Shown in pieces: positions 48,601 to 51,600 of a DNA stretch of 64,000 nt. The stretch is from Gammaproteobacteria bacterium (GTDB lineage Bacteria > Pseudomonadota > Gammaproteobacteria > JAURND01), in contig DASZWJ010000034.1 in assembly GCA_035546635.1 (NCBI GenBank), forward strand, positions 159,548 to 223,547, given 5' to 3'. A program made the position numbers. Each line of letters opens with the position of its first letter. Position 1 is the first letter of the stretch.

Positions 48601-51600
48601 AAGCTGGTTGGTGTGGTGAAACGGCCGCCCCAGAGTTTTTGTTGCATAGGTTGAATCTCCTGAGAGTTCTATTACAGCCTTGACTTCTTTCCTCTAACAG
48701 CCGTGGCTTTTTTCCTTCTCCCCTTGTGGGAGAAGGGAAGAAGCTAGGGCTGTAATAGGCTGTGAGAAAATATTTAAACCGTTTCAGACTCACGCGCCGG
48801 TTCATGCACCGACTGATAAATCTGTGTAGGCAAGCCCCACAACTTAATAAACCCAAGTGCAGCATGGTGATCAAACTGATCCTCATCATTATAAGTTGCT
48901 AAAGTTTTTTGGTACAAAGAAAAAGGCGAATCTCTGCCCACCACAATTGCATGTCCTTTATGTAATTTGATGCGCACTTTGCCGGTGACGTTTTTCTGTG
49001 TAGCGTTGATAAATTCTGACAAAGCTTCACGTAAAGGGGAGAACCAGAGTCCTTCATAAATGAGATTGGCAAAGCGTTGTTCAATTAATGGCTTAAACGC
49101 GGCAACATCACGCACCAATGTGAGAGTTTCTAAGGCTTTATGCGCTGTGATTAAAGCGATGGCTGCGGGTGCCTCATAAACTTCACGTGATTTAATACCG
49201 ATTAGACGATTTTCAATATGGTCAATGCGGCCAACACCATGCTTGCCGGCAATTATATTTAATTCAGCAATCAGCTGGGTCAGACTTAATGTCTGATTAT
49301 TCAGTGCAACAGGTTTTCCTTGTACAAATTCAATGGTGATTTCTTCAGCGTTAAGCGGTGCATTGTCAATTGATTGGGTTAATGCATAAGCACCTTCAGG
49401 GGGCGCAACCCAAGGGTCTTCTAGTGCGCCACATTCGCAGCTGCGTCCCCATAGGTTCTGGTCTATGCTGTAGGGATTATCCAAGTCAACGGGTAGTGGT
49501 ATGTTATGTTGGTTAGCATAATGGATCGCTTGTTCGCGTGAAGTGGGATTTTCACGTTGTGGGGCAATAATTTGCAGGTGAGGCGCTAAAGAATGAATGG
49601 CGACATCAAAACGTACCTGGTCATTGCCTTTGCCGGTGCAGCCATGCGCTACGGCTACGGCGCCTTCCGTTTTTGCAATGTTTACTAAGGTTTTGGCAAT
49701 TAGAGGTCTTGAGAGCGCAGAGACTAACGGGTAAACGCCTTCATACAAGGCATTGGCTTTGAGTGCGGGCAGTATATACTCTTCGGCGAAGATTTCTTGT
49801 AAGGGCAGGATATAACATTTTTGCGCGCCCACTTGTAAGGCTTTTTGTTCAATCGCTGACAGTGTTTTGCCTTCGCCGACATCGACACATGCCGCGATGA
49901 CGTCAAGGCCATAATTTTCTTGCAACCATTTAATGGCACATGAAGTATCAAGTCCGCCTGAGTAAGCTAGAATAACTTTTTTGTTCATGATGTCTCCAGG
50001 GTGTGTGTTGTAGGTTTATATCAAGCTGCAAGTAAATGCAGTAATAATGCTTTTTGTACATGTAAGCGGTTTTCGCTTTGATGAAAAATCACCGAGCAAG
50101 GCAGGTCAGGCAGGGTGTGGCTGACTTCTTTGCCGCGCTCCATAGGTAAGCAGTGCATAAAAACGGCTTGGGTTTTAGCTTTTGCCATCAGCTGTTCATC
50201 TACTTGAAAACCATTGAATAAATATTCATGGTTCTGTCCTTCAAATCCCATGCTGGTCCAGGTATCGGTGTAGACGGCGTCAGCAGTATTCACGGCTTGC
50301 TCAGGACTGCTAAATGCTTTAATGGTTCCTGGGTTGGCATTTTTGCTGGCGCGCGCCAGGATCGAAGCATCTGGGCCGCGCGATTCTGGGCAGCAATAAT
50401 GCACATTCACGCCGAGGGTTGGGGCGATTAATAATAGACTGTGTAATATGTTATTGCCATCGCCGATATAGGCTAAGGTTAACCCTGATAGTGCGCCATA
50501 TACTTCAAGCAATGTCAGCATATCCGCGAGAATTTGGCAGGGGTGATGCAAATTAGATAAGCCGTTAATAATGGAAACCGGTGAAGCTGCGCCCATGCGT
50601 TCTAGGTAATCATCAGCAAAAGTCCGTACCATAATGGCCTGACAATAGCCGCCTAATACTTTGGCCTGATCTTCAGGCTGTTCTTTTTTGCGGGTGTCCG
50701 ACAAACTTTCCACTACATTGCCACCTAATTCACGCATGGCAATCGTAAAACTAAATCGAGTACGCAAAGAGGGTTTATCAAACAGCAAGGCTAGGTGCTG
50801 TCCTTGCAATGGGGGTTCAAGGTTATTTTGATGACGATTTTTTTTAAGTAGCAACGCCTTCTTTAGAATGCTATGGGTTTGTTGGGAGCTTAGTTCTTCT
50901 CCCGTGAGATAATGCTGTGGTGATTTCATCTTTTTGCCTCAATCGGGGGCAAAGCAGTTGCTTCCCGCTGGTTTTTATGGTTGAATAATTATTCATAAAA
51001 AATGAATTATTATTCAGTTTTGGATAAAATGCAAGTCTATTCTAAGAGGAAGTACACAGGATGAAGATTGGTATCATCGGAGTCACCGGTTACACCGGCA
51101 TAGAATTATTGCGCATTCTGAATGCACACCCAGAAGTAGAAATTAAATGTGTCACGACTGAGTCATTTGCCGGAGAGATGTTGGCACAGGTTTACCCGCA
51201 TTTGAAAAATGTGATTAACCTCATGGGTGAAAAACTCGATATTGAAAAAATGGCTGCATCGTCCTGTGAGCTGGTATTTATTGCTTTACCGCATGGTCAT
51301 GCCACACCGATTGTGGAGAAATTGCTGGCGGCAGGTAAAAAAATTATTGATCTGGGTGCAGATTTTAGGTTGCAGAATAACAGAGATTATCAGCAGTGGT
51401 ATCAACTAAGCCCGCCGCCGGCACATTTATTACAGCAAGCAGTTTATGGGCTGCCGGAAGCGGGTATGCGCGCGGCAATTTCACAGGCTAAATTGGTAGC
51501 TAATCCGGGTTGTTATGCCACCTGTGCTGCTTTGGTAGCTATTCCGGCAATTATGGCTGGAGTGATCGCTATGAATGATTTCATTTTTGATGCAAAATCC

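What the first reader, a model, noticed from the sequence alone, without database searches (positions are those of the whole stretch)
50980..51018. Canonical double ARG box between divergent argFGH and argCJB operons in a Legionellales-like genome
Two 18-bp TGAAT-N4-ATTCA palindromes are separated by exactly 3 bp, as in E. coli ArgR operators. They are centred between the argF and argC start codons. Several well-studied Legionellales pathogens are arginine auxotrophs that have lost this pathway. A complete, ArgR-regulated argCJB/argFGH set is therefore notable for the lineage and suggests a less host-restricted lifestyle.
Basis: partly seen in the sequence, partly recalled or inferred. Interest (0 to 1): 0.5.

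Follow-up and report, generated by a model that had tools for sequence, protein, structure and literature searches.

The report
Textbook arginine-repressor operator between arg operons
Two perfect arginine-repressor binding boxes sit between two divergent arginine-synthesis operons of an uncultured gammaproteobacterium; the site is real, is conserved in relatives and has a matching repressor gene in the same genome bin, but it is an ordinary example of a well-known switch.

Summary
Box 1 (50980-50997, gtTGAATaattATTCAta), a 3-bp spacer (aaa) and box 2 (51001-51018, aaTGAATtattATTCAgt) lie in the 131-bp gap between argF (minus strand) and argC (plus strand). An exact pair is expected about 5e-7 times per window. 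In 200 shuffles, no pair had fewer than 4 mismatches.

The flanking genes are intact argH-argG-argF and argC-argJ-argB. The same box pair occurs upstream of argC in six of seven related loci. In an alignment of these regions, invariant columns lie almost entirely within the boxes. Three relatives carry argR in the same cluster.

The window has no argR. An argR from the same NCBI submission (HVV69560.1; the window's ArgC is HVV69394.1) and the same sequencing run lies beside an arginine-type ABC importer. It keeps the E. coli DNA-binding and arginine-binding motifs.

This is therefore a canonical ArgR operator, most likely shutting off both divergent promoters when arginine is plentiful.

The lineage claims are weaker. 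The "Legionellales-like" label is plausible but unproven. argD and carAB, which are clustered with these genes in relatives, are missing from the window, so "complete pathway" is not shown.

Verdict: new member of a known kind, low interest.

The parts
50980..50997 (.). ARG box 1 (gtTGAATaattATTCAta), on the argF side
   Evidence: exact core. The core is identical in the closest relative L082 and recognisable in L084, L085, L086, L090 and L091.
50998..51000 (.). 3-bp spacer (aaa) between the boxes
   Evidence: Relatives have a 2-bp spacer (core-to-core 20). Both spacings are within the range reported for ArgR sites (PMC4381063).
51001..51018 (.). ARG box 2 (aaTGAATtattATTCAgt), on the argC side
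   Evidence: exact core. The T-tatt-AT centre is almost invariant across 7 loci.
51025..51035 (+). Conserved TAAAATGCAAG block 6 nt after box 2. Inferred to be the -10 element and start region of the argC promoter, which would put the -35 inside box 2.
   Evidence: The block AAA(A/T)GCAAG is conserved at the same offset in window, L082, L085, L086 and L090, and more weakly in L084. In L082 it lies only about 12 nt before the ATG. The consensus promoter scan found nothing at its threshold, so this is inference.
50968..50979 (-). CTGGTTTTTATG (minus strand CATAAAAACCAG) abutting box 1. Candidate -10 region of the argF promoter.
   Evidence: Conserved between window and L082 (ctggtttatga) while the rest of the leader differs. 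Inference only.
50021..50929 (-). argF, ornithine carbamoyltransferase, first gene of argF-argG-argH
   Evidence: NCBIfam NF001986, 332.7 bits (cut-off 306), full length.
48774..49988 (-). argG, argininosuccinate synthase
   Evidence: NF001770, 594.5 bits.
47169..48647 (-). argH, argininosuccinate lyase
   Evidence: TIGR00838, 608.5 bits.
51061..52110 (+). argC, N-acetyl-gamma-glutamyl-phosphate reductase, first gene of argC-argJ-argB
   Evidence: TIGR01850, 430.7 bits. Identical to NCBI HVV69394.1.
52126..53328 (+). argJ, bifunctional ornithine acetyltransferase / N-acetylglutamate synthase (stands in for argA and argE)
   Evidence: NF003802, 502.9 bits. The ATML autoprocessing motif is present.
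53336..54214 (+). argB, acetylglutamate kinase (292-aa start as called in public assemblies)
   Evidence: TIGR00761, 263 bits. Gene call in L001.

Best explanation
The 39-bp element at 50980-51018 is a canonical operator for the arginine repressor ArgR. When arginine is abundant, a hexamer of arginine-bound ArgR should bind the two ARG boxes on one face of the DNA. The boxes lie back to back with the two divergent promoters. Box 2 covers the likely -35 and spacer of the argC promoter, and box 1 abuts the likely argF promoter. One bound hexamer would therefore block RNA polymerase at both promoters and shut off argCJB and argFGH together. ArgR is encoded elsewhere in the same genome, next to an arginine-type ABC importer. 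Shown here: the sequence, its statistical rarity, its conservation, the identities of the arg genes, and a cognate ArgR with intact motifs. Inferred: binding, promoter positions, arginine dependence and repression.
For: Exact double box with canonical geometry. Chance expectation is about 5e-7 and shuffles never come close. The flanking genes are six intact arginine-biosynthesis genes. The same box pair lies upstream of argC in L082, L084, L085, L086, L090 and L091. Invariant alignment columns fall almost entirely within the two boxes; only three lie in the conserved block just after box 2. In L085, two MITE-like insertions flank the pair but leave it untouched. In L084, L086 and L090, argR is the last gene of the argCJB(D) operon that starts at these boxes. 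An ArgR (P0223 = HVV69560.1) lies 166 accession numbers from the window's ArgC (HVV69394.1) and comes from the same run, SRR12170514. It is 43% identical to E. coli ArgR and keeps NQSKISR (DNA contact) and GTVAGDDT (arginine binding). Its best solved relative is an arginine repressor. The closest relative's assembly has the same unlinked argR-importer arrangement. Literature: the canonical E. coli site is two 18-bp boxes with a 3-bp (2 or 3) spacer, 39 bp in all, overlapping the -35/-10 of arg promoters (PMC6640053; PMC4381063).
Against: No experiment has been done. The consensus promoter scan found no sigma-70 promoter in the gap, so overlap of operator and promoter rests on a conserved -10-like block only. 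argR is tied to this genome only through MAG binning, accession proximity and a shared sequencing run, not through a shared contig. No canonical box pair was found upstream of argR itself. One relative (L089) has argCJBD without any box pair, so the control is not universal in the group.
Confidence: 0.9

Rival explanations
1. The boxes are a relic. The ArgR gene assigned to this bin belongs to another organism or no longer acts here, and the arg operons are expressed constitutively or controlled in another way.
For: argR is not on the window's contig region. The link is by binning, accession number and sequencing run only. The lineage has lost argD, argR and carAB from the cluster compared with relatives.
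Against: Both cores are perfect. They are also kept in L082, where ArgC is only 72% identical and the surrounding spacer has diverged. A relic would decay. The closest relative's assembly carries the orthologous argR (71% identical) in the same importer context, so argR is a stable part of this lineage.
Confidence: 0.05
2. ArgR binds here, but the main effect is not simple dual repression. It might repress only one promoter, activate, or bend DNA architecturally, as in ArgR's accessory role at plasmid cer recombination sites.
For: Promoters could not be located with confidence. The geometry on the argF side is less clear than on the argC side (my reading). ArgR-family proteins can also activate (PMC12341379).
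Against: The site lies between biosynthetic operons, where ArgR acts as a repressor in studied systems. There are no recombination-site features nearby.
Confidence: 0.04
3. The palindromes are chance AT-rich symmetry or the site of an unrelated regulator.
For: The gap is AT-rich (65% A+T). A third exact core occurs by coding accident inside argF.
Against: The chance expectation for the exact pair is about 5e-7. Conservation is position-specific across 7 loci. There is an exact match to the ArgR motif and co-occurrence with argR.
Confidence: 0.01

Closest known systems
Canonical E. coli ArgR operators (for example artJ and artP, and the arg biosynthetic operators)
   Same: [quoted passage not shown] The cognate ArgR has the same two domains and motifs and is 43% identical.
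   Different: Both cores here are perfect, whereas E. coli boxes are described as semi-palindromic or imperfect. Close relatives of this genome use a 2-bp spacer. Binding has not been tested here.
E. coli argECBH divergent ('bipolar') operon with a shared internal operator (from my own knowledge of the classical literature)
   Same: One pair of ARG boxes lies between two divergently transcribed arginine operons, so a single repressor complex controls both directions.
   Different: The gene content differs: here it is argFGH against argCJB, with argJ replacing argA and argE. Whether the two promoters overlap or face away from each other is not known here.
Legionella pneumophila ArgR (lpg0490) regulon
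   Same: An ArgR with E. coli-like binding sites in a member of Legionellales (PMC3920079; PMC12341379). As here, late arginine steps are present (growth on ornithine or citrulline).
   Different: L. pneumophila lacks the early pathway, is an arginine auxotroph, and its ArgR mainly controls Dot/Icm and other non-arginine genes. Here ArgR sits over a classical biosynthetic cluster that includes the early genes argC, argJ and argB.
Uncultured relatives with the larger cluster carA-carB-argF-argG-argH <> argC-argJ-argB-(argD)-argR (L084, L086, L090)
   Same: The same divergent layout, the same box pair at the same place, and enzymes 57-60% identical for ArgC.
   Different: The window and its nearest relative L082 lack carAB, argD and argR in the cluster. 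Their argR lies beside an ABC importer instead. The spacer is 3 bp rather than 2 bp.

Membership tests
E. coli-type ArgR operator (double ARG box) | Two 18-bp (semi)palindromes with a TGAAT-N4-ATTCA core | tested here: met
   Both cores are exact.
E. coli-type ArgR operator (double ARG box) | Boxes separated by 2 or 3 bp (about 39 bp in total) | tested here: met
   3-bp spacer, 39 bp in total, reproduced in an independent assembly. Range taken from PMC4381063.
E. coli-type ArgR operator (double ARG box) | Located in the control region of arginine genes and overlapping the -35/-10 | tested here: inconclusive
   The location between argF and argC is met. Promoter overlap is only inferred from a conserved -10-like block; the consensus promoter scan found none.
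E. coli-type ArgR operator (double ARG box) | A cognate ArgR (Arg_repressor N- and C-terminal domains) is encoded by the same genome and has DNA-binding and arginine-binding residues | tested here: met
   P0223 = HVV69560.1 comes from the same submission and the same run as the window's ArgC. Both Pfam domains are present, and the SR and GDD motifs are kept. Caveat: the link rests on binning.
E. coli-type ArgR operator (double ARG box) | The site is conserved at orthologous positions in related genomes | tested here: met
   Found in 6 of 7 related loci. Invariant columns fall almost entirely within the boxes.
E. coli-type ArgR operator (double ARG box) | Arginine-dependent binding of hexameric ArgR and repression of transcription | not testable with these tools
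   Needs EMSA or footprinting and reporter assays.
Complete de novo arginine pathway | argC, argJ (or argA plus argE), argB, argF, argG and argH are intact | tested here: met
   All are above the NCBIfam cut-offs with full-length matches. ArgJ has the ATML motif.
Complete de novo arginine pathway | argD (acetylornithine aminotransferase) and carAB (carbamoyl-phosphate synthase) are present | tested here: not met
   tblastn with the relatives' ArgD, CarA and CarB found nothing in the 64-kb window. The rest of the genome could not be searched, so absence from the genome is not shown.
Order Legionellales | Phylogenetic placement by conserved marker proteins | tested here: inconclusive
   For: the best solved relatives of enolase and SurE are 3tqp and 3ty2, by 45-50 bits. 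These are Coxiella burnetii proteins according to my memory of the entries. Relatives by ArgC or ArgR include a MAG labelled Legionellales and RIFCSPHIGHO2_12_FULL_37_14, which is sister to Legionella in PMC8896642. Against: the NCBI label is only Gammaproteobacteria. The best named MutL hits are Motiliproteus, Halopseudomonas and Pseudomonadaceae at 55-57%, with no Legionella or Coxiella in the top 120. PurA does not discriminate.
Order Legionellales | [quoted passage not shown] | not tested

The most novel reading that the evidence does not exclude
The window comes from an uncultured lineage related to Legionellales that, unlike L. pneumophila and C. burnetii, still makes arginine de novo under classical ArgR control. 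In this lineage the ancestral supercluster (carAB-argFGH <> argCJBD-argR) has been broken up. argR has moved next to an arginine importer, and the operator spacer has changed from 2 to 3 bp. This would mark a less host-dependent nutrition within a host-adapted order.
Probability: 0.3. Interest if true: 0.3.

Novelty: new member of a known kind. Interest (0 to 1): 0.15.

Why it matters
The finding matters little beyond annotation. It allows a confident call of an ArgR regulon member in an uncultured gammaproteobacterium. It also shows that a whole group of related environmental genomes, at least some of them placed in Legionellales, keep an ArgR-controlled arginine cluster. This is a useful contrast with the arginine-auxotrophic pathogens L. 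pneumophila and C. burnetii. If the genome were firmly placed in Legionellales and shown to carry argD and carAB, it would add a modest data point on how amino-acid independence was lost during host adaptation in that order.

Tried and rejected
(1) The genome-contig scan with ArgC returned only Desulfobacterota and Geobacter relatives at about 50% identity. I do not read this as horizontal transfer.

(2) tblastn of E. coli ArgR and of the relatives' ArgR, ArgD, CarA and CarB against the window found nothing.

(3) The sigma-70 consensus scan of 50850-51150 found no promoter.

(4) I searched for an autoregulatory ARG-box pair upstream of argR (L087, L092). There was only one weak single box, and it is not conserved.

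(5) The third exact core, inside argF (50215-50228), was considered as a distal operator. I rejected it: it has no partner box, it encodes EYLF, and it is not conserved in L085 or L086.

(6) Taxonomy through MutL homologues gave no Legionellales signal. Orphan proteins gave no lineage-specific family hits. Rfam found only a tRNA.

(7) The primary paper on the L. pneumophila ArgR regulon (PMC2937375) is not held, so its operator consensus could not be compared directly.

(8) The terminator-like hairpin at 50945-50965 was considered as an attenuator. It is stronger on the plus strand, has no equivalent in the L082 spacer as read, and I did not pursue it further.

Full report
**Observation.** Box 1 is at 50980-50997 (gtTGAATaattATTCAta), followed by the spacer aaa at 50998-51000, and box 2 is at 51001-51018 (aaTGAATtattATTCAgt). 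Both TGAAT-N4-ATTCA cores are exact, and the core-to-core distance is 21 bp.

An independent Logan assembly of run SRR12170514 (L001) has the identical sequence, including the A6 run, so the 3-bp spacer is not an assembly slip.

The element lies in the 131-bp gap between the argF start (50929, minus strand) and the argC start (51061, plus strand). It is 50 bp from the first and 42 bp from the second.

From base composition, 0.12 exact cores are expected per 64 kb, and about 5e-7 exact pairs at 20-21 bp spacing. This is the only pair in the window with fewer than 5 total mismatches. In 200 composition-preserving block shuffles, the best pair had 4 mismatches.

**Genes.** NCBIfam identifies six arginine genes, all above the curated cut-offs and matched over the full profiles.
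- Minus strand: argH (47169-48647), argG (48774-49988), argF (50021-50929).
- Plus strand: argC (51061-52110), argJ (52126-53328), argB (53336-54214 by the public gene call).

ArgJ keeps the ATML autoprocessing motif, and I saw no frameshifts.

The rest of the window is ordinary gammaproteobacterial chromosome. It carries rpoS, htpG, miaA, hflXKC, purA, ffh, tilS, pyrG, eno, ispDF, surE, nlpD-like, mutL, ald and etfAB, among others.

tblastn finds no argR, argD, carA or carB in the window.

**Related loci.** The window's ArgC is NCBI HVV69394.1, from a MAG labelled 'Gammaproteobacteria bacterium'. I fetched seven related loci.
- L082 (ArgC 72% identical) has the same neighbourhood: mutL ... 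etfAB, argHGF <> argCJB, MFS, tdk, TPR, malic enzyme.
- L084 is an NCBI MAG labelled Legionellales bacterium. Like L086 and L090, it carries a larger cluster, carA-carB-argF-argG-(argH) <> argC-argJ-argB-(argD)-argR.
- L085 has argD after argB.
- L089 has argCJBD without a divergent partner operon.
- L091 has aroA <> argC-argJ.

A box pair lies upstream of argC in six of the seven loci, all except L089. In every one of these the core-to-core distance is 20 bp, which is a 2-bp spacer.

In the alignment of these regions, the invariant columns lie within the two boxes, apart from three in a short block, AAA(A/T)GCAAG, 6-9 nt after box 2. Everything else has diverged.

In L085 the argF-argC gap has grown to 763 bp through two GC-rich elements with terminal inverted repeats. 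These flank the box pair and leave it intact.

This is a clear phylogenetic footprint. The presence of argR as the last gene of the operon that starts at the boxes, in three relatives, ties the site to ArgR.

I searched with a relative's ArgR and looked up accession numbers. This found P0223 = HVV69560.1, 'MAG TPA: arginine repressor [Gammaproteobacteria bacterium]'. It is 166 accession numbers from the window's ArgC and sits on a 39-kb contig.

The same protein is encoded in Logan run SRR12170514, the run that also yields the window's arg locus. Here argR is transcribed divergently from a polar-amino-acid ABC importer (ATPase, SBP_bac_3 binding protein, two permeases), which resembles the art system.

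The nearest relative's assembly (ERZ25039590, the source of L082) has the orthologous argR (71% identical) in the same context.

P0223 is 43% identical to E. coli ArgR and keeps NQSKISR and GTVAGDDT. From my own knowledge of E. coli ArgR, these correspond to the DNA-contacting Ser-Arg and the arginine-binding Asp-Asp. The E. coli sequence was recalled from memory but aligns cleanly.

The best solved relative of P0223 is an arginine repressor, 3v4g.

I found no canonical box pair upstream of argR itself.

**Mechanism.** In E. coli the canonical ArgR site is two 18-bp boxes separated by 3 bp (2 or 3 bp), 39 bp in total. It is bound by an arginine-loaded hexamer on one face of the helix and overlaps the -35 and/or -10 of arginine promoters (PMC6640053; PMC4381063). 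The element here fits that description exactly.

The conserved TAAAAT-GCAAG block at 51025-51035 is best read as the -10 and start region of the argC promoter. In L082 it lies only about 12 nt before the start codon. This reading puts the -35 in the left half of box 2.

On the other side, CATAAAAACCAG (minus strand, 50968-50979) abuts box 1 and is shared with L082. It is a candidate -10 region for argF.

A single bound hexamer would thus occlude both divergent promoters, much like the shared operator of the E. coli argECBH cluster (comparison from my own knowledge).

The promoter assignments are inference. The consensus scan found no sigma-70 promoter at its threshold.

**The lineage claims.** The literature supports the premise.
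- L. pneumophila lacks the early arginine steps and is an arginine auxotroph. It can use ornithine or citrulline, and it has an ArgR with E. coli-like sites (PMC3920079; PMC12341379).
- C. burnetii arginine auxotrophy is documented (Sandoz 2016, cited in PMC5449765).

Whether this window is 'Legionellales-like' is not settled.
- For: the best solved relatives of its enolase and SurE are 3tqp and 3ty2, by 45-50 bits. These are C. burnetii proteins according to my memory of those entries.
- For: relatives by ArgC or ArgR include a MAG labelled Legionellales and RIFCSPHIGHO2_12_FULL_37_14, which branches next to Legionella in PMC8896642.
- For: relatives carry large ankyrin-repeat proteins next to the cluster.
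- Against: the NCBI label is only Gammaproteobacteria.
- Against: the best named MutL hits are Motiliproteus, Halopseudomonas and Pseudomonadaceae at 55-57%, with no Legionella or Coxiella in the top 120.
- Neutral: PurA does not discriminate.

'Complete pathway' is also not shown. argD and carAB, which relatives keep inside this cluster, are not in the window, and I could not search the rest of the genome.

Finally, the cluster is common in this group of uncultured genomes: dozens of ArgC homologues above 55% identity appear. It is therefore not a peculiarity of this genome.

**Verdict.** The feature is real and highly non-random. With about 0.9 confidence it is a functional ArgR operator for the divergent argFGH and argCJB operons. 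It is a new instance of a thoroughly known regulatory device. The only mildly interesting points are evolutionary: break-up of the larger cluster, relocation of argR beside an importer, and a 2-to-3-bp spacer change. They depend on a taxonomic placement I could not establish. Interest is low.

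Noticed in passing
window 50215-50228: A third exact TGAATaaatATTCA core lies inside argF. It has no partner box at 20-21 bp, encodes EYLF, is only partly kept in L082 and is not kept in L085 or L086. It is probably a by-product of coding sequence.
   Followed up: yes
window 54247-55287: A hydrophilic orphan ORF (215-226 aa, no Pfam or NCBIfam hit) and a divergent MazE/AbrB-like gene (54991-55287, minus strand) lie just after argB. Relatives have argD and/or argR at this position. The closest relative L082 lacks both inserts.
   Followed up: partly
window 50945-50965 (+): A terminator-like hairpin with a T-run sits on the plus strand within the argF leader region, just upstream of the boxes. 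It has no equivalent in the L082 spacer as read, and its function is unknown.
   Followed up: no
L084 4598-8707; L090 2526-6659: In two relatives, carB and argF are called as one 1369-1377-aa gene (carbamoyl-phosphate synthase large subunit fused to ornithine carbamoyltransferase). In L086 they are separate, overlapping genes. This could be a substrate-channelling fusion.
   Followed up: no
L085 9296-9483 and 9709-9945: Two GC-rich elements with terminal inverted repeats (MITE-like), related to each other and in opposite orientation, inflate the argF-argC gap to 763 bp. They leave the ARG-box pair (9587-9626) intact.
   Followed up: partly
relatives L082, L084, L085, L086, L090, L091 versus window 50998-51000: All relatives with a box pair space the cores 20 bp apart (2-bp spacer). 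Only the window has 21 bp (3-bp spacer), through one extra A in an A-run. An independent assembly confirms this.
   Followed up: yes
L087 9887-9907 (argR-importer gap of the same MAG); L092: A block conserved between the two closest genomes lies upstream of argR. It includes the inverted repeat ACATAGG-N7-CCTATGT, which does not resemble an ARG box and may be the site of another regulator.
   Followed up: no
window 3135-6596 and 14558-16576: Two large ORFs (1153 aa and 672 aa) have no hit in Pfam or NCBIfam. Large orphan proteins are typical of host-associated bacteria, but this says nothing firm.
   Followed up: partly
window 51061-52110 (ArgC) and its homologues: Outside its own group of uncultured gammaproteobacteria, the nearest named ArgC homologues are from Symbiobacterium, Caldinitratiruptor and other Bacillota (51-54%), and from Desulfobulbaceae and Geomonas (about 50%). 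None is from cultured Gammaproteobacteria. ArgR, in contrast, is of the gammaproteobacterial type. This may hint at a foreign origin of the enzymes, but no tree was built.
   Followed up: no
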